This document shows, one piece after another, positions 20,237-35,146 of a stretch of DNA of 64,000 nucleotides. Below the pieces are notes generated by a model. It did no database searches and was not told where the DNA came from. It saw only the letters and a program-made list of their open reading frames with translations. Location of the stretch: positions 382 to 64,381 of the forward strand of contig CAJXGD010000007.1 of assembly GCA_913053845.1 (NCBI GenBank). Reading direction: 5' to 3'. The position numbers were made by a program, and so were the translations under genes. This stretch comes from an uncultured bacterium. GTDB taxonomy: Bacteria; Bipolaricaulota; Bipolaricaulia; RBG-16-55-9; DRJF01. Each line of letters starts with the position of its first letter. Within the stretch, counting starts at the first letter, position 1.

Positions 20237-21646
20237 ATGAGCGATCTCAGCTGGGCCGGCTTAGCCATCCTGCTAGGGGCGGCGCTCTTCCCCTGGATCT
20301 ATCGGGCACCGATTCGCGGGGTTTACTTAATAACCCTGGCGCTGCCGCTGATAGTCAGCCCGCCGCTGCCGCTGCTGGGGCGCAAACTGGCGCTTGTTGA
20401 TCTCTTTATCGTCGTGACCGCGCTGGCTTGGGGTGCTCGTCAACTCTTGGTGCCCGCCGCGCGCCGGCCGTTGCGGCTCGATCCCAAACTCTATATTCCG
20501 CTGGGGCTCTACTATCTGGTCGCGCTAGCCTCATTTCAAAATACCCTTTCGCCACTCTGGAGCGGGATAGAGCTGCTCTCGATGATCTATCTGGGCTTGG
20601 GCTTCTTTCTGGTCATCCAAATCATCTCTGACAAGCGTGAGTTGGAGAATATTCTGAAGTTGTGGATGATCTCGGCGGTGGCAGTAGTGCTCTTCGGTCT
20701 GGTGCAGATGGCTTCGCTCTATACCGGCTTGTGGCAGGATAAGCTGCTCTGGTTCCACACCAAGCAGCGCATTACTTCTACGTTTAATTTCCCCAATCAA
20801 CTGCCTTCGTATCTGGCGACGATCACCCCGGTGTTCTTCTATTATATCGCCCGAGGCAGGACGGCTTGGCTGCGCGGCGGTGCGCTGCTTTTTGCCATCA
20901 CTTCAGCGATCGTGATGCTGGCCACCGCCTCACGGACGGCCGTGGGCCTGATCATCGCCTTGGTGGCGCTCTATTGGGGTTGGTCGCTCATCGAAGGCCG
21001 CAAAAAGCGCGGCAGGCTGCCGCTTCGGCCGCTGCTGGCCGGCGCCGCGGTGGTCCTGCTCTTGTTGGCCTCCGTCTTCGCTCTGCGCGCCAACACCTGG
21101 GGAATATATACTAGACTGCGCCAGGTGCCCTCCATCGGGCGGGCGCTGGACATCGTGCGCAATCTAGACCTGAAACAGATCGACAACGAGCGCTACCTGA
21201 TGTACAGCGTGGGCTTCCAGGCGGTCCGCGAGCACCCTTGGGTGGGCGTGGGCATTGGCAGTTTCCGTTTTTTCTACCTGCGCACCCCCGGCGGTTATCC
21301 GCATGAGATGCACTCCAACCTGCTTTCCCTCTTGGCCGAGACGGGCGGCTTGGGATTTTTAGCTTTTATGAGCTTCATCGGGGTCCTGCTCTGGTATGGT
21401 AAGCGCGTGGCCTTCGATCTGAAAGACGACCGTTGGCGCCACCTGGGCGCGACGCTGGTCATCGGTTTTGTGACCAACTTCTTCGTCTATGGGGCTTTTC
21501 TGCTGGGCCTGCGCGAGCGGCACCTCTGGCTGAGCATGGCACTGATCGTCAGCTTGGTCAATCTGAGCAGGGGCATGGACCCCTCCCCCAGCTCCTCCCC
21601 GAAGCGGAGAGGGGAGCTTATCACCGAAGGGAGCCAAACCACATGA
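20237..21646 (+). CDS. Wzy_C-family (O-antigen ligase / polymerase / O-oligosaccharyltransferase-like) membrane protein
   Basis: Polytopic, 469 aa. The characteristic loop block reads YPHEMHSNLLSLLAETGGLGFLAF. Confidence 0.75.
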   Translation: MSDLSWAGLAILLGAALFPWIYRAPIRGVYLITLALPLIVSPPLPLLGRKLALVDLFIVVTALAWGARQLLVPAARRPLRLDPKLYIPLGLYYLVALASFQNTLSPLWSGIELLSMIYLGLGFFLVIQIISDKRELENILKLWMISAVAVVLFGLVQMASLYTGLWQDKLLWFHTKQRITSTFNFPNQLPSYLATITPVFFYYIARGRTAWLRGGALLFAITSAIVMLATASRTAVGLIIALVALYWGWSLIEGRKKRGRLPLRPLLAGAAVVLLLLASVFALRANTWGIYTRLRQVPSIGRALDIVRNLDLKQIDNERYLMYSVGFQAVREHPWVGVGIGSFRFFYLRTPGGYPHEMHSNLLSLLAETGGLGFLAFMSFIGVLLWYGKRVAFDLKDDRWRHLGATLVIGFVTNFFVYGAFLLGLRERHLWLSMALIVSLVNLSRGMDPSPSSSPKRRGELITEGSQTT

Positions 21647-22587
21647 GCCATTATCTGGTCAGCGGGGCGGCCGGCTTCATCGGCTCGCACTTGACCGCGC
21701 GCTTGCTCGAGCTGGGCAAATCGGTCCGGGCGCTGGATAACTTTTCCACCGGGAAGCGGGTCAATCTGGCCGGCTGCCGGGGCCATGGCAGCTTCGAGCT
21801 CCTGACCGGCGACCTGCGCGATCTGGAAACAGCTCGTCAGGCCGTGGCCGGCATTGATATCGTCCTGCACCAGGCGGCTATATCTTCGGTGCCCCGCTCG
21901 GTGGCTGACCCCTTGAGCTCGCACCAGGCCAACGCCACCGGGACGTTGAATTTGTTGATCGCCGCACGCGATGCCGGAGTGAGAAAACTGGTCTATGCCA
22001 GCTCTTCATCCATCTATGGCCCAACTAGCGAGCTGCCCCAGCGGGAGACGATGCCGCCCAATCCGGTCTCGCCCTATGCCCTGAGCAAGTTCGCCGGTGA
22101 GCGCTACTGTCAGCTCTTCTCGCAGCTCTACGAGCTGCCCACCGTGGCACTGCGCTACTTCAACGTCTTCGGGCCAAGACAGGACCCGGCCTCGCAGTAT
22201 GCCGCGGTCATCCCGCGCTTCATCATCGCGCTGCTCTCCGGTCGGCCTCCGGTCATCTACGGCGACGGGGAGCAGACGCGCGACTTCACTTATATCGCCA
22301 ATGTGGTCGAAGCGAACTTGCTGGCCGCGCAGGCCGAGATCTCCGGCGAGGTGCTCAACATCGCCTGCGGAGAGCCTGTTTCGCTTAACGCGCTGCTGGC
22401 TCAATTGGAAGCGCTCTTAAGTATTGAGATAACCCCAGAATATACCCAGTCGCGACCGGGCGACCTGCGCCGCTCGCAGGCCGACATCGCTAAGGCGCGC
22501 GACCTGATCGGCTATCGGCCGCAGGTAGGCTTTGCAGAGGGCCTGCGGCGCACGCTAGAATATTTTCAACGGGAGATGAAGCGTTAA
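21643..22587 (+). CDS. NAD-dependent nucleotide-sugar 4-epimerase (WbpP/GalE-like extended SDR)
   Basis: Start MSHYLVSGAAGFIGSHL at ATG 21643, which forms an ATGA overlap with the upstream stop. Catalytic YALSKFAGE is present. The longer ORF-track start at 21433 overlaps the Wzy_C gene and was rejected. Confidence 0.85.
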   Translation: MSHYLVSGAAGFIGSHLTARLLELGKSVRALDNFSTGKRVNLAGCRGHGSFELLTGDLRDLETARQAVAGIDIVLHQAAISSVPRSVADPLSSHQANATGTLNLLIAARDAGVRKLVYASSSSIYGPTSELPQRETMPPNPVSPYALSKFAGERYCQLFSQLYELPTVALRYFNVFGPRQDPASQYAAVIPRFIIALLSGRPPVIYGDGEQTRDFTYIANVVEANLLAAQAEISGEVLNIACGEPVSLNALLAQLEALLSIEITPEYTQSRPGDLRRSQADIAKARDLIGYRPQVGFAEGLRRTLEYFQREMKR

Positions 22588-22590
22588 GAG

Positions 22591-23874
22591 ATGACAGATA
22601 AACCTGAGCGGGTGGCGGTCATTGGCCTAGGCTACGTCGGCCTGCCGCTGGCCGTGGCCTTCTGTCAGAACGGTTTTGGCGTAACTGGCATAGATCTGGA
22701 TCACCAACGTCTAGGCCAGTTGGAAAAGGGCAAATCGTACATTCAAGATGTCTCCTCTGAGACGATTGCCGACTGTCTGAAGAGCGGCCGCTTCCGGGTT
22801 TCCAGTGAGTATCAAGCGCTCTCGCAGGCCGAGGCGATCATCGTCTGCGTGCCCACCCCGCTGCGCAAGACCAAGGACCCCGACATGTCCTACGTGGTGG
22901 ACGCTGCTGAGCGCATCTCTCCCCATCTGCGCCGTGGCCAGCTGGTCATCTTGGAGAGCACCGTCTACCCCGGTGCAACTGAAGAGCTGATCCAGCCCTT
23001 GCTGGAGCGCCCCGATCTGGCGGCCGGTCGGGAGTTCCACCTGGCCTTCTCACCGGAGCGAGTTGATCCGGGTAATCGCCAGTTCTCTCTGCGTCAGATT
23101 CCCAAGGTGATCGGGGGGCTGACCCCGGCCTGCGCCGAGCGCGCCCAGCAGCTCTATGAGGCCATCTTCGACCGGGTGCTCACCGTGGGCTCGCTCAAGG
23201 AGGCTGAGCTGACCAAGTTATTAGAAAACACCTTTAGATCAGTCAATATCGGTCTGATCAATGAGCTGGCACTGATGGCCCACAAGATGGGGATCAATAT
23301 CTGGAGCGTCATCGAGGCCGCCGCGACCAAGCCCTTCGGCTTCATGCCCTTCTATCCGGGGCCGGGACTGGGAGGACATTGTATTCCCTTGGACCCGTTT
23401 TACTTGTCTTGGAAGGCCAAGAGCTACGGGGCCGATGCGCGCTTCATCGAGCTGGCCGGCGAGGTCAATGGCAAGATGCCGGCCTACGTGGTCACCCGGA
23501 TCATGGAGCTCTTAAACCAGAAGGGCAAGCTGCTCCGGGGCGCTAAGCTTCTCATTCTAGGGGTGGCCTACAAGCGCGACATCAACGACCTGCGCGAGTC
23601 GCCTGCGCTGGACATCATTGATCTACTGGAAGAGCGAGGCGCCCAGGTGAGTTATCACGACCCGCACGTGCCGGAGTTTGCCCATCGCGGTCGGGAGCGC
23701 CGCTCCGCCGAGCTCAGCGAGAAACTGTTGGCCCGGCAGGACTGTGTGGTCATCGTGACGGCGCACTCGGCCTTCGATTATGGGTATATCGCCGAGCACA
23801 CTCCGCTGATCTTCGACACGCGCAATGCCACCCAGGGGCTGGCCGGGCGCTTCGCTAATATAGAGGTGCTGTAG
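22591..23874 (+). CDS. UDP-N-acetyl-hexosamine 6-dehydrogenase (WbpO/WecC/VipA-like nucleotide-sugar dehydrogenase)
   Basis: VAVIGLGYVGLPLAVAF and catalytic-Cys block GGHCIPLDP; 427 aa. Confidence 0.85.
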   Translation: MTDKPERVAVIGLGYVGLPLAVAFCQNGFGVTGIDLDHQRLGQLEKGKSYIQDVSSETIADCLKSGRFRVSSEYQALSQAEAIIVCVPTPLRKTKDPDMSYVVDAAERISPHLRRGQLVILESTVYPGATEELIQPLLERPDLAAGREFHLAFSPERVDPGNRQFSLRQIPKVIGGLTPACAERAQQLYEAIFDRVLTVGSLKEAELTKLLENTFRSVNIGLINELALMAHKMGINIWSVIEAAATKPFGFMPFYPGPGLGGHCIPLDPFYLSWKAKSYGADARFIELAGEVNGKMPAYVVTRIMELLNQKGKLLRGAKLLILGVAYKRDINDLRESPALDIIDLLEERGAQVSYHDPHVPEFAHRGRERRSAELSEKLLARQDCVVIVTAHSAFDYGYIAEHTPLIFDTRNATQGLAGRFANIEVL

Positions 23875-23898
23875 GGGCGTATGGCCATACGCCCCTAC
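23871..23898. repeat. Perfect 28-nt palindrome, GTAGGGGC-family REP-like element
   Basis: GTAGGGGCGTATGGCCATACGCCCCTAC read directly. It contains the dehydrogenase stop codon (TAG 23872-23874) and ends 5 nt before the GT4 start. Confidence 0.6.
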
Positions 23899-23903
23899 CG
23901 GCG

Positions 23904-25115
23904 ATGGGCCGCCCACGTCCGGCCAAGATATTGCAACTGACGGCGATAGACTTGACTATCTGGGCCTTTCTGCCGCCCTTGCTCGAGCGACTGCGCTCGG
24001 CCGGCCTTCAGGTGCAGCTCGCCTGCTCGCCCGGTCCCCATCTTGAGGAACTACAGGCCCAAGGCTACCGGGTGCACCGGATCCGGATCGCCCGACGGCT
24101 GGTTTCTTTGGAACATCTGCGTGCCCTCTGGCAGCTCTATCGGCTGATGAAGCGTGAGCGCTTTGACCTGGTGCATGTGCACACGCCGGTCGCCGGAGCG
24201 CTGGGTCGGCTGGCTGCCCGGCTGGCCGGGGTGCCGCTGATCTTTTACACCAGCCACGGCTTCTATCTGCCGCAGACCGGCTTCGGCCTGCCACGGCGCT
24301 TTTTTCTGGCCATCGAGCGCTTCTTGGGACAACGTTGCACCGATTTTTTATTCACCGTCAGCGGCGAGGACCGCGAGTTGGCCATCCGAGAAAAGATCGC
24401 ACCGCCCGAGCGGGTGCTCTGGACCCAGGGAGTGGGACTGGACACCGCCCGTTATGGTCAGGTTTTAAGCGAGCCCCAGAAGACAGCCTTGCGGCGCTCG
24501 CTGGAGCTGGCGCCCCAGGACCGAGTTATCGGCTTCATCGGACGACTGGTGCGCGAGAAGGGCATCGAGGAGCTGCTGCTGGCTCTGGCTCAGGTGTGCG
24601 AGCGCTTCCCCAATGCAAAGCTATTGTTGATCGGCGAGACGCTGCCCTCCGAGCGCGATCGGGGGACCGGGCGGCGCATCGCCCGACTCATCCGGGAGAA
24701 CCAACTGGACTCCTCGGTCAGGCTGGTCGGCTTTCGCCAGGATATTCCGGAGCTCTTAGCTCTGATGGATCTCTTCGTCCTGCCCTCGCACCGGGAGGGG
24801 ATGCCCCGCTCGCTCCTGGAAGCTATGGCCGCCAGTCTGCCAGTCGTGGCGACCGATATTCGCGGCTGCCGCGAGGAGGTGGTTGATGGCAGGACCGGCC
24901 TGTTGGTTTCGGTGGGGGACGTTTCCGACCTGGCCCAAGCGATCATGCGCTTATTGTCCGATGGCGAGCTGGCCCGTAAAATGGGCCAGGCTGGGCGAGA
25001 GCGAGCGAGCGAGCTCTTCGACGATAGGGTGGTGCTGGAGCGCCAGATTGAGGTCTATCGGCAGCTCTTGGGGGAGCGAGGTCTATGGCCGGAAAACCAA
25101 TGCGATTCGCGCTAA
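23904..25115 (+). CDS. Glycosyltransferase family 4 (GT-B, GT1/GT4 type)
   Basis: 403 aa. The C-terminal block reads LPSHREGMPRSLLEAMAASLPVVATDIRGCREEVVDGRTGLLV (an EX7E-type region). Confidence 0.85.
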   Translation: MGRPRPAKILQLTAIDLTIWAFLPPLLERLRSAGLQVQLACSPGPHLEELQAQGYRVHRIRIARRLVSLEHLRALWQLYRLMKRERFDLVHVHTPVAGALGRLAARLAGVPLIFYTSHGFYLPQTGFGLPRRFFLAIERFLGQRCTDFLFTVSGEDRELAIREKIAPPERVLWTQGVGLDTARYGQVLSEPQKTALRRSLELAPQDRVIGFIGRLVREKGIEELLLALAQVCERFPNAKLLLIGETLPSERDRGTGRRIARLIRENQLDSSVRLVGFRQDIPELLALMDLFVLPSHREGMPRSLLEAMAASLPVVATDIRGCREEVVDGRTGLLVSVGDVSDLAQAIMRLLSDGELARKMGQAGRERASELFDDRVVLERQIEVYRQLLGERGLWPENQCDSR

Positions 25116-25735
25116 AACGTCTGATGGACATCGCAGGCAGCCTGAGCGGCTTGGGGCTATTGGCAGTGCCCTTCGCGCTGATCGCCCTGGTGATCAAGTC
25201 CGACTCGCCGGGGCCGGTTTTCTTCAAGCAAGAGCGGATTGGCCGAGGCGGTAAACGCTTCCTGAGCTGGAAATTCCGCACCATGATCGTCCATCAGGAC
25301 AAGAGTTATAAGATCAGCCGAGATGATCCGCGCATCACCCGCGTCGGGCGCGTGCTGAGAAAATGGGGACTGGACGAGCTGCCTCAGTTGTTCAACGTGC
25401 TGGGGGGTCAGATGAGCTTAGTGGGGCCGCGAGCCCTACCCTATCCTCCAGAGAGCTACGGCCCAAAGGAGCGCCGCCGGCTGCTGGTCAAGCCGGGGCT
25501 GACCGGCTGGGTGGTCGTCAACGGGCGCAACCGGCTCAGTTGGGAGGAGCGTATTCGGCTAGATCTCTGGTATGTGGATCATTTCTCGCTTTGGCTTGAC
25601 TTGGTGATCCTGCTGCGCACGCTCTGGGTGGTGCTGGTCACCCATGAGGGGCTCTACGGTCCGGGCGGGGTCAACGAAGAGTTCGCCCCAGCGGGCTCAG
25701 CTTCAGGGGAGGAGCCGGCCCACCATGAGCGATAG
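25085..25735 (+). CDS. Small monotopic phosphoglycosyl transferase (PglC/WbaP-C-terminal type, Bac_transf)
   Basis: KRLMDIAGSLSGLGLLAVPFALIALVIKSDSPGPVFFKQERIGRGGKRFLSWKFRTM and DELPQLFNVLGGQMSLVGPRA; 216 aa. Confidence 0.85.
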   Translation: MAGKPMRFALKRLMDIAGSLSGLGLLAVPFALIALVIKSDSPGPVFFKQERIGRGGKRFLSWKFRTMIVHQDKSYKISRDDPRITRVGRVLRKWGLDELPQLFNVLGGQMSLVGPRALPYPPESYGPKERRRLLVKPGLTGWVVVNGRNRLSWEERIRLDLWYVDHFSLWLDLVILLRTLWVVLVTHEGLYGPGGVNEEFAPAGSASGEEPAHHER

Positions 25736-26414
25736 AACATTGCTGATCTACGGGGCCTCCGGCCACGCCAAGGTCATCATTGACATCGTCGAGCGGGCCG
25801 GGCGCTATCGCATCGTCGGCCTGCTGGACGACGATCCGCAGTTGCAAAGTGAAAAATTCTTCGGTTATCCTGTGCTGGGAGGGGGCGAGCGTTTGGCCGA
25901 GGAGAGCTACCCGGATCATCGGCTGGTCATTGCGGTGGGGGATAACTTTGCGCGCCGGGAGATCTGGCGCAGGGTCGAGGCGCTAAGAAATTTCCAGTAC
26001 GCGCTGGCGGTCCATCCTGCGGCCCAGATCGGCCGTGAGGTGCAGTTGGGGGAGGGCACGGTCGTGATGGCCAACGTGGCCATCAATCCCGGCACGCTCA
26101 TCGGTCGGCAGGTGATCATCAACACCGGCGCGACGGTTGATCACGACTGCCTGATTGGGGATTTTGCCCATATCTCGCCAGGGGTACATCTGGCGGGCAA
26201 CGTTCAGGTAGGCGAGCTGACCCATCTGGGCGTGGGAACGGCGGTCCTGCCGGGGGTGCATATTGGGGCCCGGTCGCTCATCGGGGCCGGAGCGGTGGTG
26301 ATCGGTGACATTCCGGATGGGGTTATTGCCGTCGGGGTGCCCGCGCGGGTGATCAAGCAACGAAGTCAGATTGGACCAGGAGGAGCAGATGACCCAAGTG
26401 ATCATTCCGGATAA
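25725..26414 (+). CDS. PglD/NeuD-family sugar N-acetyltransferase (left-handed beta-helix)
   Basis: Start MSDRTLLIYGASGHAKVIIDIVE at 25725, with a hexapeptide-repeat C-terminus (INPGTLIGRQVIINTGATVDHDCLIGDFAHISPGVHLAGNV). Confidence 0.8.
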   Translation: MSDRTLLIYGASGHAKVIIDIVERAGRYRIVGLLDDDPQLQSEKFFGYPVLGGGERLAEESYPDHRLVIAVGDNFARREIWRRVEALRNFQYALAVHPAAQIGREVQLGEGTVVMANVAINPGTLIGRQVIINTGATVDHDCLIGDFAHISPGVHLAGNVQVGELTHLGVGTAVLPGVHIGARSLIGAGAVVIGDIPDGVIAVGVPARVIKQRSQIGPGGADDPSDHSG

Positions 26415-26709
26415 ATTAAGTGAGATACTACAACAATTAGAAGGCAAGACACTGGATCAAAAGCTGGCTCAGTTGATCGAGCGTGACCTGGAGCATCGTT
26501 TGCGCTATTGCTCTAGGCGCATCGTAGATTTCGAGGTGAAATATGGCCTATTGTTCGAGGAATTTCGCGCCGCCTGGGAATTGGGTACCATCCCCGATCG
26601 TCATGCTCATGAGATAGAGCGAGACTACATGGAGTGGGAGAGCCTGGTAGATGAGCGCCAACTGTTGCTCACTAAGTTAAAACAACTCACCAACAGGTTG
26701 TTCTCTTAA
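26389..26709 (+). CDS. Small helical hypothetical protein embedded in the glycan operon
   Basis: ATG 26389 lies 5 nt after AGGAGG. The product (106 aa) is MTQVIIPDKLSEILQQLEGKTLDQKLAQLIERDLEHRLRYCSRRIVDFEVKYGLLFEEFRAAWELGTIPDRHAHEIERDYMEWESLVDERQLLLTKLKQLTNRLFS. G+C is 21/60 at 26401-26460. I recognise no family. Confidence 0.45.
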   Translation: MTQVIIPDKLSEILQQLEGKTLDQKLAQLIERDLEHRLRYCSRRIVDFEVKYGLLFEEFRAAWELGTIPDRHAHEIERDYMEWESLVDERQLLLTKLKQLTNRLFS

Positions 26710-26712
26710 CTT

Positions 26713-27831
26713 ATGCAAGACTTGATTATTCCCGCCTCTAGGCCGGATATCACCGAGGTCGAGCGCCAGGCGGTCCTCGAGGTGCTCGAGAGCCCCATTC
26801 TGAGCATGGGACCCAGGCTGGAGGCCTTCGAGCGTGCCCTGTCTGAATACGTTGGAGTGGCCCACGCGGTGGGCACCAACAGCGGCACCAGCGCCCTGCA
26901 CCTGATCGTGCGCGCCCTGGGCTTGGGAGCCGGCGACGAGGTGATCACCACCCCGTTCAGTTTCATCGCCTCGGCCAACTGTCTGCTCTTCGAAGGCGCG
27001 CGGCCGGTCTTCGTGGATATTGATCCGGAGTCGCTCAATCTCGATGTGGACCGGATCGAAACGGCCATTACTGAACGAACACGCGCGATTTTGGCCGTAG
27101 ACGTCTTCGGCCATCCGGCCGACTGGGACGAGCTAGAGCGGCTAGCTAGCTTGTATGGCCTGCTGCTGATCGAAGATTCGGCCGAGGCGCTGGGCGCCCG
27201 CTATCACGGTCGGCCGGCCGGCAGCTTCGGCCAGGCGGCTATATTCGGTTTTTATCCTAATAAGCAGCTCACCACCGGTGAGGGCGGCGTGGTCTTGACC
27301 GATAATGCTGAGCTGGCCGAGCTCTGCCGCTCGCTGCGCAATCAGGGACGCGCCCCCGACGACAGTTGGCTGACCCACCTGCGCCTGGGCTATAACTATC
27401 GCCTCGATGAGCTCTCGGCCGCCCTGGGCTTGGCCCAGCTCTCGCGGCTGGATGAGATGCTCAGCCGCCGCGAGCAGGTGGCCCAGCTCTATGCCGAAAA
27501 ACTGGCCAACATCGAAGAAGTCACTATTTTGCGGACCAAACCCGGGGTCTGGCGCAGCTGGTTCGTTTATATTATTCAATTGGCTCCCGGGATCAATCGG
27601 ACCAAGCTGATGAGCTATCTGGCCCAGTGCGGCGTACAAACGCGGCCCTATTTCAGCCCCATTCACTTGCAGCCCTTCTATCGCGAGCGCTTCGGATATC
27701 ATGAAGGCGACTATCCTGTCACTGAAAATATCAGTCGCCGCACGCTGGCTCTGCCGTTTTATAACCGGCTTTCCGAGCCGGAGATTGACTATGTGGTGAG
27801 GAGCTTGAAGGAGGGGATCGCAGGAGGATGA
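26713..27831 (+). CDS. DegT/DnrJ/EryC1-family sugar aminotransferase (PglE-like)
   Basis: 372 aa. Blocks GTNSGTSALHL, FYPNKQLTTGEGG (PLP Lys region) and NYRLDELSAALGLAQL. Confidence 0.85.
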   Translation: MQDLIIPASRPDITEVERQAVLEVLESPILSMGPRLEAFERALSEYVGVAHAVGTNSGTSALHLIVRALGLGAGDEVITTPFSFIASANCLLFEGARPVFVDIDPESLNLDVDRIETAITERTRAILAVDVFGHPADWDELERLASLYGLLLIEDSAEALGARYHGRPAGSFGQAAIFGFYPNKQLTTGEGGVVLTDNAELAELCRSLRNQGRAPDDSWLTHLRLGYNYRLDELSAALGLAQLSRLDEMLSRREQVAQLYAEKLANIEEVTILRTKPGVWRSWFVYIIQLAPGINRTKLMSYLAQCGVQTRPYFSPIHLQPFYRERFGYHEGDYPVTENISRRTLALPFYNRLSEPEIDYVVRSLKEGIAGG

Positions 27832-29825
27832 GCCGTCTGATAGGGCGCAATCGCCTGACCCGCGCGCTCTTCTTCGGAGCGCTCGATCTGGTCTGGATCG
27901 GCCTGGCGATCTACATCGCCTTCCTGCTGCGCTTCGACGGCCGGATCTCGCCAAACTACGCCGCGCGGCTCTGGATTTACTGGGGGATCGCCCTGGCGCT
28001 CAAGCTGCCAATCTTCGCCCTACAAGGTCTCTATCGCATGAGCTGGGCTTATGTGAGCTTGGAAGACCTGTTGGCCGTGCTGCGCGCCGCTACGTTGAGC
28101 TCGCTACTCCTGGGCATGGTCTTGTTCTTCTTAGGGCGCGAAAGCTCGCTCTTCAGCGATTTTCCCCGCTCGGTGCTGATTATAGACTATTTGCTCACGA
28201 TAAGCTTCATCGGTGGCTTTCGCCTCTGGAAGCGAATTTATCTTCGCCTGCGCTCGCGAGGAGTGCGGCCGGGGCGGCCAGCACTGATCGTGGGCGCCGG
28301 GGACGCCGGCGAGCAGTTGGCCCGCAACATGCTGAGCGAGCGCGCCTCCGGCTGGAGTCCGATCGGCTTCGTGGACGACGATCCGGCCAAGCGAGGGCTC
28401 TCGCTGCACGGCCTGCCGGTGTTGGGCACGCGGGCCGACCTGCCACAGATTATCAAGGCCTATAATATCGAGCTGGTGCTGGTGGCCTTGCCCGCGGTGC
28501 GCGGCCGGGTGATCCGCCAGATCGTCACCCTGGCCCGTGAGGCCGGAGTGCCCAAAATCGAGATCCTGCCCGGCATCCATGAGCTGCTCAGCGGGCAGGT
28601 CAGCTTGTCGCAAGTGCGTGAGGTGCAACCGGAAGATCTGCTGGGACGCGATCCGGTGCAGATTGATAGCCGGGAGATCTCGTGTTATCTCAAGGGCAAA
28701 CGGGTGCTGGTCACCGGGGCAGCCGGCTCGATCGGCCGCGAGCTCTCTCGGCAGGTGCTCAAGTTCGCTCCGGCCCGGCTGGCCCTGCTCGATCAGGATG
28801 AGACAGCGCTCTTTCTCTTGGGCAATGAGTTGAGCCGGGTCTTTCCCAGTGATCAGACCGCAATCATGCCGGTTTTGGCCGATGTGCGCGATGCGGCCAA
28901 GATCTCCCAGGTGTTCAGCGCCGAACGGCCCGAGATCATCTTCCATGCCGCGGCCTACAAGCACGTGCCGGTAATGGAAGCCCAGCCGGAGGAGGCGATT
29001 AAGACCAACGTGCGCGGCACCCGCCTGCTGGCCCAGGCGGCCTTGGAATCGGGCGCCGAAAAGTTCCTGCTCATTTCGACCGACAAGGCGGTCCGTCCCA
29101 GCTCGGTGATGGGTGCCTCCAAGCGGGTGGCCGAGCTGATCATGCAGGCGCTGGCCACCCAGAGAGCGACCAGCTTTTTCGCCGTGCGCTTCGGCAACGT
29201 GCTAGGTAGCCGAGGCAGCGTGATACCGATATTGCAGGAGCAGATCAAGCGTCGCGGGCCGGTGACCATCACCCATCCGGGAATGAAGCGCTATATGATG
29301 GCCATCTCCGAGGCAGTCGCGTTGGTATTGCAGGCCGGCGCCCTGGGCCAGGGGGGCGAGGTCTTCGTGCTGGACATGGGCCGGCCGGTTAAAATACTCG
29401 ATCTGGCCCGCGAGCTGATTCGCTTCTCGGGCTATGAGCCGGAGGTGGATATTCCCATAGTCTTCAGCGGCGCGCGCCCCGGCGAGAAGCTCTTTGAAGA
29501 CCTGCTGAGCGCCGAAGAGGGCACCGAGGCCACCCGGCATGAGAAAATCTACGTGACCCGCTTGAGCACCTCCTGGGAGCCGAGGGCGCTCTTTGAGGCC
29601 AGCGGGCAACTGGAGCAGGCAGCCGAGCGCGGCGACCGCGAGGCGGTGCTGGCCGGCTTGCGGGAGCTGGTGCCGACCTATCGGCCGCAGGTGATCGACG
29701 CGCCGGTCTCCGTAGGGGCACCCCTGGTGGGTGCCCAGGATGCAGGCGCCCCAGATAGGGCAGGCACAAGGCCCGCCCCTACATCATCAGGCGAGATCCA
29801 TCCTAAAAATGGGGGTGGCAGATGA
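27828..29825 (+). CDS. Membrane-anchored UDP-GlcNAc 4,6-dehydratase (PglF/CapD, Polysacc_synt_2)
   Basis: N-terminal TM helices, VLVTGAAGSIGRELSRQV, AAYKHVPVME and STDKAVRPSSVMGASKRVAE. The last 40 or so codons run through a REP-like palindromic element. Confidence 0.85.
   Translation: MSRLIGRNRLTRALFFGALDLVWIGLAIYIAFLLRFDGRISPNYAARLWIYWGIALALKLPIFALQGLYRMSWAYVSLEDLLAVLRAATLSSLLLGMVLFFLGRESSLFSDFPRSVLIIDYLLTISFIGGFRLWKRIYLRLRSRGVRPGRPALIVGAGDAGEQLARNMLSERASGWSPIGFVDDDPAKRGLSLHGLPVLGTRADLPQIIKAYNIELVLVALPAVRGRVIRQIVTLAREAGVPKIEILPGIHELLSGQVSLSQVREVQPEDLLGRDPVQIDSREISCYLKGKRVLVTGAAGSIGRELSRQVLKFAPARLALLDQDETALFLLGNELSRVFPSDQTAIMPVLADVRDAAKISQVFSAERPEIIFHAAAYKHVPVMEAQPEEAIKTNVRGTRLLAQAALESGAEKFLLISTDKAVRPSSVMGASKRVAELIMQALATQRATSFFAVRFGNVLGSRGSVIPILQEQIKRRGPVTITHPGMKRYMMAISEAVALVLQAGALGQGGEVFVLDMGRPVKILDLARELIRFSGYEPEVDIPIVFSGARPGEKLFEDLLSAEEGTEATRHEKIYVTRLSTSWEPRALFEASGQLEQAAERGDREAVLAGLRELVPTYRPQVIDAPVSVGAPLVGAQDAGAPDRAGTRPAPTSSGEIHPKNGGGR
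29712..29782. repeat. Composite GTAGGGGC...GCCCCTAC palindromic element inside the 3' end of the PglF-like ORF
   Basis: The outer arms are GTAGGGGC (29712-29719) and GCCCCTAC (29775-29782). There is an inner hairpin GGGCACCC-ctggt-GGGTGCCC. The element translates as VGAPLVGAQDAGAPDRAGTRPAPT. Confidence 0.45.
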
Positions 29826-31057
29826 CCGTTTACGATGTCATCGTGGTGGGCGCCGGGCCGGCCGGCTCGGTGGCGGCCAGGACGGCCGCCCAGGAGGGAG
29901 CGCATGTGCTGCTCCTGGAAGAGCATCTCCAGGTCGGTCATCCGGTCCGCTGCACCGGCCTGCTCAGCGTGCGCGGCGTCGAGCAAGCGGGGGTCTCTAG
30001 GGATGTGCTCCTGCGGCCCATCCGCGGGGCGTTCATCTACGGTCCCGAGGGGGAGCGGCTGACGGTCGGAGGCCCCGCGCCCAAGGGCTACGTGATGGAC
30101 CGCGGTCGCTTTGACCAGGATCTGGTTGAACAAGCCAGCCACGCCGGCGTCCAAGTCGTCATCGGGGCGCGGGCCTGCGCGCTCACTCGCAGCACTGCAA
30201 GTTCTGAACTAGTCTTCAGGCGAGACGGCCGAGAAGAGCGGGTCCGAGGACGGGTGATCATCGGCGCCGACGGGCCGCAGAGCCGGGTGGCCCATTGGGC
30301 CGGCCTGCCGCGCCCCCGGCGGATGATCGCCGCACTGCAGGTGACGATCGCCCACGAGCCGGAGCGTCCCGACTTCGTGGAAGTCTTCGTCGGACGCCAG
30401 ATAGCCCCTGACTTCTTCGCCTGGGCGGTGCCAGCCGGGCCGGGAGAGGCGCGGGTGGGGCTGGGCACCAGCCAAGGGCCGCAGATACGGGCTCTACTGG
30501 ACAAGCTGCTCGAGCGTTGGGGCGCGCCGCGGCGGCTCAGCGAAGAGTCAGGCGTTATCCCCTTAGGGCTGCCGGAGCGGACTGTCACAGATGGGATCAT
30601 GCTCGTTGGCGATGCCGCCGGCCAGGCCAAGCCGACCTCCGGGGGTGGCATCTATACCGGCACGAGCTGCGCCCGCATCGCCGGCGAGGTGGCCGCGCGG
30701 GCGGCCCTCTCCGGCAGGAGCGATCGGCGGACGCTCTGGGAGTATGAGCGCCGCTGGCGAGCCCTGCTGGAGCGCGAGTTGCGCTTCGGCTTTCAGGCTC
30801 ATCAGGCGCTCAGGCGCCTAGGCGATGGCGATCTCTCGCGGCTCTTCCGCGCGGCGGATCACCCGCAACTGCTGGCCCTACTGGGTGAGCACGGCGACAT
30901 TGACTACACCAGCCGAGCACTGCGGGCGATGCTGCGGCGACCCAGGCTCTGGGGACGAGTGCTGCGGGCCATCCCCTTCGATCTTCAAGCACTACTGGAG
31001 CTCTTGGGGGGAGCGCCCGAGGACATTGCCCAATACGCTAAAGGAGAGTCTCAGTAG
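29822..31057 (+). CDS. Geranylgeranyl-reductase-family FAD-dependent oxidoreductase
   Basis: YDVIVVGAGPAGSVAARTAAQEG...VRCTGLLS, IIGADGPQSRVA and VGDAAGQAKPTSGGGIYTG. There is an ATGA start/stop overlap with the upstream gene and a 2-nt gap to the downstream gene. Confidence 0.75.
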   Translation: MTVYDVIVVGAGPAGSVAARTAAQEGAHVLLLEEHLQVGHPVRCTGLLSVRGVEQAGVSRDVLLRPIRGAFIYGPEGERLTVGGPAPKGYVMDRGRFDQDLVEQASHAGVQVVIGARACALTRSTASSELVFRRDGREERVRGRVIIGADGPQSRVAHWAGLPRPRRMIAALQVTIAHEPERPDFVEVFVGRQIAPDFFAWAVPAGPGEARVGLGTSQGPQIRALLDKLLERWGAPRRLSEESGVIPLGLPERTVTDGIMLVGDAAGQAKPTSGGGIYTGTSCARIAGEVAARAALSGRSDRRTLWEYERRWRALLERELRFGFQAHQALRRLGDGDLSRLFRAADHPQLLALLGEHGDIDYTSRALRAMLRRPRLWGRVLRAIPFDLQALLELLGGAPEDIAQYAKGESQ

Positions 31058-31059
31058 AT

Positions 31060-35146
<4,087 letters not shown>

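What the first reader, a model, noticed from the sequence alone, without database searches (positions are those of the whole stretch)
29822..31057. Geranylgeranyl-reductase-family flavoprotein translationally coupled inside a bacterial glycan operon
Seen: the GGR-like ORF carries YDVIVVGAGPAGS, VRCTGLLS and GDAAGQAKPTSGGGI. It starts with an ATGA overlap on the PglF-like stop and ends 2 nt before the Wzy_C-TPR start. It is therefore an integral operon member and not a neighbour.

Established knowledge: GGR-family enzymes saturate isoprenoid double bonds in archaeal lipids, chlorophyll and menaquinone side chains, and archaeal dolichol carriers. Bacterial glycan carriers such as undecaprenyl phosphate are normally unsaturated.

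Inference: the enzyme may partially saturate the polyprenyl-phosphate carrier used by the adjacent PglC-type transferase, giving a dolichol-like carrier in a bacterium. Alternatively it may modify an isoprenoid aglycone of the final glycoconjugate.
Basis: partly seen in the sequence, partly recalled or inferred. Interest (0 to 1): 0.6.

Follow-up and report, generated by a model that had tools for sequence, protein, structure and literature searches.

The report
Isoprenoid reductase paired with glycan ligase
An archaeal-type isoprenoid double-bond reductase is kept directly in front of an O-antigen-ligase-like membrane protein across most of the uncultured bacterial phylum Bipolaricaulota, and in many members the only isoprenoid it could plausibly act on is the lipid carrier of surface sugars, which would give bacteria a dolichol-like carrier.

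Summary
ORF 29822-31057 (+) encodes a 411-aa geranylgeranyl-reductase (GGR) superfamily flavoprotein: TIGR02032 scores 236 bits against a cut-off of 158.8, and the predicted fold matches Thermoplasma GGR. It overlaps the PglF-like stop (ATGA) and ends 2 nt before the Wzy_C-TPR start.

- Among 151 genomes of the phylum (Bipolaricaulota/Acetothermia/Fraserbacteria by homologue names), 134 carry one GGR orthologue.
- In at least 81 of the 133 relatives with the orthologue, Wzy_C-TPR follows it on the same strand.
- A PglF-like gene occurs in only 48 genomes.

Families f6, f7 and f9 mostly lack any UbiA-type prenyltransferase. Two closed f6 genomes and one near-complete one hold only one trans- and one cis-prenyl synthase. 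No menaquinone, archaeal-lipid or carotenoid route was found there, which leaves polyprenyl phosphate as the plausible substrate.

The closest named relatives outside the clade are archaeal.

This is inference without biochemistry, and my confidence is about 0.5. Rivals are a menaquinone reductase (this genome has MenA) and another lipid role with inherited synteny. First readers of this scan flagged similar GGR-ligase pairs on other genomes; I did not check those notes.

The parts
29822..31057 (+). GGR-superfamily FAD flavoprotein (411 aa, P0001). It is the only match above the TIGR02032 cut-off in this genome.
   Evidence: TIGR02032 236.3 bits against a cut-off of 158.8. PDB 3oz2 by sequence, E 2e-41. 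AF2 model pLDDT 90.5; Foldseek 3oz2 TM 0.83/0.86. Only match above cut-off in G000. Invariant C44, F199/W201/P204 and GDAA 263-266 in 18 orthologues.
31060..33600 (+). Wzy_C-TPR membrane protein (846 aa) with a WaaL-like polytopic core and a C-terminal TPR domain predicted to face outside the cytoplasm. This is the conserved partner of the GGR.
   Evidence: Pfam Wzy_C 52.4 bits plus TPR families. Core matches WaaL 7tpg, E 1.4e-5. Hydropathy and positive-inside count place the tail 631-846 outside. It lies directly downstream of the GGR orthologue in at least 81 relatives.
27828..29825 (+). PglF-like membrane-anchored UDP-HexNAc 4,6-dehydratase whose stop overlaps the GGR start.
   Evidence: Polysacc_synt_2 372 bits plus CoA_binding_3. 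PseB-like 181 bits, below cut-off. ATGA overlap.
25085..27831 (+). PglC-type phosphoglycosyl transferase (25085-25735), PglD-like acetyltransferase (25644-26414) and PglE-like aminotransferase (26713-27831).
   Evidence: Bac_transf 209.9 bits; PglD_N plus Hexapep; DegT_DnrJ_EryC1 423.8 bits.
20237..25115 (+). Head of the operon: a second Wzy_C protein (20237-21646), an epimerase/dehydratase-family SDR (ORF 21433-22587, domain from residue 75), a UDP-sugar dehydrogenase (22591-23874) and a GT4 glycosyltransferase (23904-25115).
   Evidence: Pfam hits. The same order is seen in the relative's loci L009/L010.

Best explanation
The gene encodes a cytoplasmic FAD-dependent GGR-type enzyme. I propose that it hydrogenates one or more double bonds of the cis-polyprenyl (undecaprenyl-like) phosphate or diphosphate carrier, or of its farnesyl/geranylgeranyl primer. 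That would give a partly saturated, archaeal/dolichol-like lipid carrier.

The gene is co-expressed with a WaaL-like Wzy_C-TPR membrane protein. By homology, that protein takes a polyprenyl-diphosphate-linked glycan on the outer face of the membrane and transfers or polymerises it. In this genome the glycan would be the one built by the adjacent pgl-like block.

Shown:
- family, fold and catalytic motifs of the reductase
- tight coupling to Wzy_C-TPR
- conservation of the pair across much of the phylum
- no other prenyl-consuming pathway found in many members

Inferred:
- the substrate
- which double bonds are reduced
- that the Wzy_C-TPR protein prefers or needs the saturated carrier
For: 1. 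It is a true GGR.
- TIGR02032 scores above its cut-off.
- Full-length fold match to Thermoplasma and Sulfolobus GGRs.
- The Cys of the PVRC motif, the F/YxWxxP...GxG motif and GDAA are invariant in 18 orthologues.

2. It is a single-copy core gene of the phylum: 134 of 151 genomes and 48 of 50 genera.

3. The pair is conserved.
- Matching the places, Wzy_C-TPR lies immediately downstream on the same strand in at least 81 of 133 relatives (families f2, f3, f6, f7). This includes the closed genomes G001 and G002.
- Intergenic gaps are 2-11 nt in most loci read and 64 nt in the closest relative.
- Upstream genes differ between loci: Fur, ADP-forming acetyl-CoA synthetase-like gene, a small unassigned ORF beside YajQ, CtpA, GpsA, Lhr, PglF.

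4. The pair travels together. G000 has two in-paralogous Wzy_C-TPR genes. One stayed beside SecA, the ancestral place. GGR sits with the other, inside the pgl block.

5. Two 'GGR-less' genomes have Wzy_C-TPR exactly at a contig edge where GGR would lie.

6. Elimination of other substrates.
- UbiA-family prenyltransferases were found in 0 of 43 f6, 10 of 55 f7 and 0 of 4 f9 genomes, although GGR is present there.
- G001, G002 and G014 hold one trans-prenyl synthase and one UppS, with no PcrB and no SQS/PSY.

7. Independent glycan links.
- G145 has PglC-PglD-PglE-PglF-GGR without Wzy.
- A MAG labelled 'Spirochaetota' has Wzy_C, a toxin-antitoxin pair, then GGR.
- G142 has GGR, a TPR protein, then ManC.

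8. Precedents.
- Archaeal GGR reduces dolichol phosphate (PMC5088576 and PMC10821996, both citing Naparstek 2012).
- M. smegmatis makes C35-octahydroheptaprenyl-P-mannose (PMC3229680).
Against: - No lipid or enzyme data exist for any member.
- The pair is not universal. GGR and Wzy_C-TPR lie on different contigs in families f4, f5, f8-f11 and genus g29 (about 27 genomes).
- G025 (93% complete) keeps Wzy_C-TPR but no GGR was found.
- G000's SecA-linked paralogue has no adjacent GGR.
- In some lineages the neighbours are glycerolipid or fatty-acid genes: GpsA, PlsX-FabD-FabG-ACP, acetyl-CoA carboxylase, an LPG_synthase_TM protein.
- Related genomes are not independent, so part of the synteny may be inherited. 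SecA is also often conserved downstream.
- Absence calls rest largely on MAGs, although two closed genomes agree.
- This genome and its whole order do have MenA.
Confidence: 0.5

Rival explanations
1. It is a menaquinone side-chain reductase working like MenJ or the Archaeoglobus menaquinone prenyl reductase. Its place in the glycan operon would then be incidental.
For: G000 encodes a MenA above the equivalog cut-off (NF004751 308.9 bits against 264) and a second MenA-like protein. All 32 genomes of the sister families in the same order (f2-f5) have UbiA-family genes. GGRs are promiscuous (PMC10821996).
Against: The orthologue, with the same clade-specific C-terminal GDIDY motif and the same Wzy_C-TPR partner, is kept in f6, f7 and f9 lineages where no UbiA-family gene was found, including two closed genomes. 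The MenJ model NF045655 scores 43 bits against a cut-off of 700. The gene was next to no menaquinone gene in any locus read.
Confidence: 0.1
2. It is a housekeeping reductase acting on some other membrane lipid or unknown alkene. Its position upstream of Wzy_C-TPR (and SecA) would be inherited gene order without a shared pathway.
For: Glycerolipid and fatty-acid neighbours appear in several lineages: GpsA in L034, PlsX-FabD-FabG-ACP in L033, ACC genes in L028, LPG_synthase_TM in L026. SecA is also conserved downstream. The pair is broken in six families, and G025 has Wzy_C-TPR alone.
Against: The flanks change while the 2-11-nt junction persists. The pair moved away from SecA together in this lineage. 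GGR joins pgl genes without Wzy in G145. No non-isoprenoid substrate is known for this family. The isoprenoid-binding motif is invariant.
Confidence: 0.25
3. It saturates an isoprenoid lipid anchor (aglycone) to which the Wzy_C-TPR 'ligase' attaches the finished glycan, rather than the carrier.
For: The phylum lacks LPS genes (PMC6092417), so a WaaL-like ligase needs another acceptor. G000 has two trans-prenyl synthases and a second MenA-like prenyltransferase of unknown role.
Against: Lineages that keep the pair have no UbiA or PcrB enzyme to attach a prenyl chain, and only one trans-prenyl synthase. The outward-facing TPR domain fits a protein or polymer acceptor at least as well.
Confidence: 0.1

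Closest known systems
Thermoplasma acidophilum digeranylgeranylglycerophospholipid reductase Ta0516 (PDB 3OZ2) and Sulfolobus acidocaldarius GGR (3ATQ)
   Same: Best sequence hit (E 2e-41) and best fold hit (TM 0.83/0.86). Shared features are the FAD GxGxxG motif, the PVRC cysteine, the F/YxWxxP...GxG lipid-binding motif and GDAA. The named nearest relatives outside the clade are also archaeal, at 38-44% identity.
   Different: Identity is 28%. It scores below the DGGGPL-reductase equivalog cut-offs (132 against 780; 111 against 580). The host is a bacterium in which no GGGPS/PcrB was found and whose only UbiA-family genes are MenA-like, so archaeal diether lipids cannot be the substrate. It carries a clade-specific C-terminal helical tail with a GDIDY motif.
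Haloferax volcanii GGR HVO_1799 (Naparstek, Guan and Eichler 2012, as cited in PMC5088576 and PMC10821996)
   Same: This GGR-family enzyme is needed to saturate the omega-position isoprene of dolichol phosphate, the glycan carrier. That is the chemistry proposed here.
   Different: It is archaeal and also reduces the membrane diether lipids. It is not known to be gene-coupled to a Wzy_C protein. I could not compare the sequences directly.
MenJ (mycobacterial menaquinone reductase) and BchP/ChlP
   Same: These are bacterial members of the same superfamily and reduce prenyl side chains.
   Different: The equivalog and subfamily models are far below their cut-offs: MenJ 43 against 700, BchP-ChlP 157 against 343, ChlP 77 against 505. 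The orthologue persists in lineages without quinone prenyltransferases.
Mycobacterium smegmatis C35-octahydroheptaprenyl phosphate carriers (PMC3229680)
   Same: A partly saturated polyprenyl phosphate is used as a sugar carrier in a bacterium, so the chemistry has a precedent.
   Different: It is a different phylum. No reductase gene is named in the source I read. No Wzy_C coupling is described.
WaaL O-antigen ligase (Cupriavidus metallidurans, PDB 7TPG/7TPJ), for the partner protein
   Same: The Wzy_C core of the partner aligns with residues 114-397 of WaaL (E 1.4e-5). WaaL uses undecaprenyl-diphosphate-linked glycan as donor.
   Different: The partner carries extra N-terminal helices, one extra helix after the core and a roughly 215-aa TPR domain facing outward. 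The phylum has no LPS genes (PMC6092417), so lipid A-core cannot be the acceptor.

Membership tests
GGR superfamily (TIGR02032 GG-red-SF) | Whole-protein score above the curated cut-off | tested here: met
   236.3 bits against 158.8, E 5.8e-70, model positions 1-297 of 297.
GGR superfamily (TIGR02032 GG-red-SF) | FAD-binding Rossmann GxGxxG and GDAA motifs, conserved Cys after the first beta-alpha-beta, and the aromatic-x-W-x-x-P...GxG lipid-binding motif | tested here: met
   VVGAGPAG 8-15, PVRC 41-44, FAWAVP 199-204, GLG 213-215 and GDAA 263-266. These align to the same motifs in 3oz2 and are invariant in 18 orthologues.
GGR superfamily (TIGR02032 GG-red-SF) | GGR fold over the whole length | tested here: met
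   AF2 pLDDT 90.5. Foldseek ranks 3oz2 first (TM 0.83/0.86, 406 columns) and Sulfolobus GGR entries second to seventh.
GGR superfamily (TIGR02032 GG-red-SF) | Hydrogenation of isoprenoid C=C bonds | not testable with these tools
   Needs an enzyme assay or lipid analysis.
Archaeal digeranylgeranylglycerophospholipid reductase (NF041160, NF041080, NF041385) | Equivalog score above cut-off, and presence of the GGGPS/DGGGPS pathway that makes the substrate | tested here: not met
   Scores are 132 against 780, 111 against 580 and 58 against 700. No PcrB/GGGPS was found in G000 or in five relatives. The only UbiA genes in G000 are MenA-like.
MenJ menaquinone reductase (NF045655) | Equivalog score above cut-off, and co-occurrence with menaquinone prenyltransferase | tested here: not met
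   43 bits against 700. The orthologue is present in 37 of 43 f6 genomes although 0 of 43 have a UbiA-family gene.
BchP/ChlP geranylgeranyl-(bacterio)chlorophyll reductase (TIGR02023, TIGR02028) | Score above cut-off | tested here: not met
   156.9 against 343.3, and 76.5 against 505.3.
Eukaryotic polyprenol reductase (SRD5A3/DFG10, steroid 5-alpha-reductase fold) | Membrane steroid-dehydrogenase domain | tested here: not met
   The Pfam scan shows only FAD/NAD Rossmann-type families and GGR_cat. If the product is dolichol-like, it would be made by the archaeal type of enzyme and not the eukaryotic one.
Conserved GGR/Wzy_C-TPR gene pair of Bipolaricaulota (defined here) | GGR orthologue directly upstream of a Wzy_C-TPR gene on the same strand, with a short junction | tested here: met
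   2-nt gap in the window. The same arrangement occurs in at least 81 relatives and in loci L009-L014, L022-L024, L034 and L035. L023 has one inserted gene.

The most novel reading that the evidence does not exclude
A whole bacterial phylum (Bipolaricaulota) routinely makes partly saturated, archaeal/dolichol-like polyprenyl-phosphate glycan carriers. It would do so with an archaeal-type GGR whose expression is tied to a WaaL-like Wzy_C-TPR transferase. That transferase may require the saturated carrier, and saturation might separate an envelope-glycan carrier pool from the peptidoglycan pool. This would blur the textbook rule that bacterial carriers are fully unsaturated and would give the first gene for polyprenyl-phosphate saturation in bacteria.
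Probability: 0.4. Interest if true: 0.75.

Novelty: new variant of a known kind. Interest (0 to 1): 0.6.

Why it matters
Reviews state that bacterial polyisoprenol carriers are fully unsaturated, and that GGR-made saturation of dolichol is an archaeal trait (PMC5088576). They also say GGRs occur in archaea, plants and phototrophic bacteria (PMC10821996).

This finding is a phylum-wide, non-phototrophic bacterial GGR clade. Its nearest named relatives are archaeal, and it is locked to a glycan ligase-like gene. In several members polyprenyl phosphate is the only visible isoprenoid end product.

That makes a long-standing question testable with one gene and one lipid extract: do any bacteria make dolichol-like carriers, and by which enzyme? 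A first cultured member of the phylum has now been reported (bioRxiv 10.1101/2025.11.21.689855).

It also gives a lead on the unstudied Wzy_C-TPR family in an LPS-less, toga- and S-layer-bearing phylum.

Tried and rejected
- **Binding of GGR to the TPR domain.** Hydropathy with the positive-inside rule puts the TPR tail outside the cytoplasm. A complex prediction was therefore not justified and was not run.
- **Pgl pathway as the conserved partner.** Rejected. The PglF-like gene is patchy: 48 of 151 genomes, and near GGR in only 8.
- **GGR remnant beside the SecA-linked Wzy_C-TPR paralogue of G000.** tblastn found none. The 600-nt upstream spacer is low in G+C and unrelated.
- **Relatives outside the clade.** An archaeon (L031) and two bacterial contigs (L032, L033) have no Wzy_C neighbour. 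The pairing therefore belongs to this clade and not to GGRs in general.
- **Searching the genome behind the 'Spirochaetota' MAG locus.** The genome is not held.
- **Literature.** Searches for a described GGR plus O-antigen-ligase/TPR pair, for GGR in Acetothermia/Bipolaricaulota, and for a named bacterial polyprenyl-phosphate reductase found nothing relevant in the held library.
- **Promoter and terminator scan.** It was uninformative beyond showing no terminator-like site at the two junctions.
- **Rooted donor inference for the archaeal affinity.** Not attempted. The tree is midpoint-rooted and most tips are unlabelled.
Full report
**1. Observation**

ORF 29822..31057 (+) exists as described. 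Its 411-aa product P0001 carries the three quoted motifs. The raw sequence shows the ATGA start/stop overlap with the 665-aa upstream ORF. It also shows a 2-nt gap (TAG at ATG) to the 846-aa downstream ORF, and both starts are preceded by purine-rich Shine-Dalgarno-like stretches.

Pfam and NCBIfam confirm the neighbours. In order, the genes are:
- a Wzy_C protein
- an epimerase-family SDR
- a UDP-sugar dehydrogenase
- a GT4 glycosyltransferase
- a PglC-type Bac_transf
- a PglD-like acetyltransferase
- a PglE-like aminotransferase
- a PglF-like dehydratase
- the GGR
- a Wzy_C-TPR protein

After these come unrelated housekeeping genes: ProRS, a NUDIX protein, PlsC-like, IspH, S1 and PlsY. The pattern scan found no terminator-like site at the two junctions.

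**2. What the protein is**

P0001 passes the curated cut-off of the GGR superfamily model TIGR02032 (236 bits against 158.8). It fails every narrower model: BchP/ChlP, three archaeal DGGGPL-reductase equivalogs, and MenJ.

Its best solved relative by sequence is the Thermoplasma GGR 3OZ2 (E 2e-41). The PVRC cysteine, the aromatic-x-W-x-x-P...GxG motif and GDAA all align.

An AlphaFold model built from 18 orthologues has pLDDT 90.5. It matches 3OZ2 at TM 0.83/0.86 over 406 columns, followed by the Sulfolobus GGR entries. Those motifs are invariant in the 18 orthologues. So is a clade-specific C-terminal GD-D motif, consensus GDIDYPS.

It is the only match above the TIGR02032 cut-off in the 2.3-Mb, 91-contig genome, which is 90.6% complete.

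**3. Whose gene it is**

Named homologues are from Candidatus Fraserbacteria, Acetothermia and Bipolaricaulota/Bipolaricaulia. An earlier follow-up on this genome also placed it near Fraserbacteria.

In a sample of 151 genomes of the phylum:
- 134 have one orthologue (62 of 69 high-quality genomes, 48 of 50 genera), at 33-59% identity
- 139 have a Wzy_C-TPR homologue

**4. The conserved partner**

I compared the places reported by hand. In at least 81 of the 133 relatives that have the GGR, Wzy_C-TPR lies directly downstream on the same strand and contig.
- The 81 comprise family f2 (11 genomes), f3 (8), f6 (about 27) and f7 (about 35). They include the closed genomes G001 and G002.
- About 27 genomes clearly do not have the pair: all of f8, plus f4, f5, f9-f11 and genus g29.
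- About 25 cannot be judged, because of contig edges or matches below the listed rows.

Annotated loci agree:

| Locus | Gene order |
|---|---|
| L012 | Fur / GGR / Wzy_C-TPR / SecA |
| L013 | ADP-forming acetyl-CoA synthetase-like gene / GGR / Wzy_C-TPR / SecA |
| L014 | YajQ (opposite strand), a small unassigned ORF / GGR / Wzy_C-TPR / SecA |
| L034 | CtpA-GpsA-GGR-Wzy_C-TPR-SecA |
| L035 | CtpA-GGR-Wzy_C-SecA |
| G082 | CtpA-GGR-Wzy_C-TPR |
| G001 | Lhr-GGR-Wzy_C-TPR |

Junctions are 2-11 nt in most of these loci and 64 nt in the closest relative. In family f2 a PAPS-reductase-family gene sits between the two.

Nine of the 17 genomes without a GGR match also lack a Wzy_C-TPR match. I inspected four genomes that have Wzy_C-TPR but no GGR match:
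- In two (G029, G122), Wzy_C-TPR lies exactly at a contig edge where the GGR would be.
- In G070 (family f8), no GGR lies nearby, as in the rest of that family.
- In G025 (93% complete), Wzy_C-TPR has a divergent upstream gene and no GGR was found.

**5. The pgl block is a local addition**

A PglF-like gene was found in only 48 of 151 genomes: 0 of 16 in f2, 9 of 43 in f6 and 25 of 55 in f7. It lies within 10 kb of the GGR in only eight: G000, G021, G103, G149, G145, G005, G006 and G106.

The closest relative (GGR 73% identical) has the same ten-gene block with different flanks.

G000 also has a second Wzy_C-TPR gene on contig C4, next to SecA, which is the ancestral position. It has no GGR and no GGR remnant beside it. 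A tree shows the two G000 copies are lineage-specific duplicates. So after the duplication the GGR stayed coupled to the copy that is now the last gene of the pgl-like operon.

In G145 the GGR is the last gene of PglC-PglD-PglE-PglF-GGR with no Wzy. That is a second, independent glycan link.

A MAG labelled Spirochaetota has Wzy_C, a HEPN/MNT toxin-antitoxin pair, then GGR.

**6. Substrate by elimination**

G000 has:
- a MenA above the equivalog cut-off, plus a second MenA-like protein
- two trans-prenyl synthases
- one UppS
- no PcrB

A quinone role is therefore possible in this genome. Across the phylum, however, UbiA-family genes are patchy. They were found in 32 of 32 genomes of the sister families of the same order, but in 0 of 43 f6, 10 of 55 f7 and 0 of 4 f9 genomes. 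The control search found them in all 14 reference genomes.

The f6 genomes G001 and G002 (closed) and G014 hold one trans-prenyl synthase, one UppS, no PcrB and no squalene/phytoene synthase. These lineages nevertheless keep the GGR and its partner. The UppS product, polyprenyl (di)phosphate, or its short primer, is then the only known long isoprenoid left.

**7. Partner protein**

The Wzy_C core aligns with the solved WaaL 7TPG. Hydropathy together with the positive-inside rule places the roughly 215-aa TPR tail outside the cytoplasm.

The phylum is reported to lack LPS genes, and its first isolate has a toga-like envelope with an S-layer (PMC6092417; bioRxiv 10.1101/2025.11.21.689855). The acceptor is therefore more likely a protein or a polymer than lipid A.

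WaaL-type enzymes take polyprenyl-diphosphate-linked glycans as donors. The shared molecule between the two gene products would therefore be the carrier lipid.

**8. Relatives outside the clade**

An exhaustive search found 1099 clusters at E <= 1e-30. Of the twenty I looked up, the named ones outside the phylum are all archaeal, at 38-44% identity: Thermoprotei, Methanosarcinaceae, Halobacteriota, Methanonatronarchaeum and Freyarchaeota.

In a FastTree of 164 sequences, all tips I had labelled Bipolaricaulota fall in one 46-tip clade (support 0.94). That label includes the MAG named Spirochaetota. The sister group of this clade contains Methanonatronarchaeum. The tree is midpoint-rooted and most tips are unlabelled, so I make no claim about direction of transfer.

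Three outsiders I checked have no Wzy_C neighbour.

**9. Literature**

[quoted passage not shown] - Partly saturated polyprenyl-phosphate carriers are known chemically in M. smegmatis (PMC3229680).
- I found no paper describing this gene pair.
- First readers of this scan noted GGR next to ligase-like genes in other genomes. One of those descriptions matches the arrangement I saw independently in L034.

**10. Verdict**

The best explanation is saturation of the polyprenyl glycan carrier by an archaeal-type GGR tied to a WaaL-like Wzy_C-TPR protein (confidence about 0.5).

The rivals and their confidences are:
- another lipid role with inherited synteny: 0.25
- a menaquinone reductase: 0.1
- saturation of an isoprenoid anchor: 0.1

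It is a new variant of a known enzyme kind. Interest is 0.6.

Noticed in passing
G000 contig C4:14873-16984 (locus L020:6862-9042, minus strand): This is a second Wzy_C-TPR gene (726 aa, about 50-62% identical to the window copy). It sits next to SecA, the position the GGR-linked copy occupies in relatives, and has no GGR. A low-G+C spacer of about 600 nt lies upstream. The two copies are lineage-specific duplicates.
   Followed up: partly
L023:4552-5292 (genome G007, family f2): A PAPS-reductase-family gene (246 aa) is inserted between the GGR and Wzy_C-TPR. The spacing suggests the same holds throughout family f2. Its role there is unknown.
   Followed up: no
L026:5545-7605 (genome G098, family f8): Here the GGR overlaps an upstream 311-aa ORF with no Pfam or NCBIfam match. 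That ORF is preceded by an LPG_synthase_TM (flippase-like) membrane protein. This is a different, lipid-flavoured context for the divergent f8 orthologue.
   Followed up: no
window 21433-22587: The longest ORF of the epimerase-family gene overlaps the preceding Wzy_C gene by 214 nt. The domain match begins only at residue 75, so the true start is probably near 21650.
   Followed up: no
window 33602-35146: The prolyl-tRNA synthetase after the operon is the archaeal/eukaryote-like type (ProRS-C_1 domain). In relatives this position after Wzy_C-TPR is usually taken by SecA.
   Followed up: no
L021:1612-2329 and L032:4309-5017: HEPN/minimal-nucleotidyltransferase toxin-antitoxin pairs lie just upstream of the GGR orthologue in two unrelated contigs. 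In L021 the pair splits Wzy_C from the GGR.
   Followed up: no
P0123 cluster: A 30-member cluster at 44% identity falls inside the Bipolaricaulota-labelled clade, next to the f8-type sequences. Its only named member is labelled 'Thermoprotei archaeon'. This is either a binning error or a real archaeal member.
   Followed up: no
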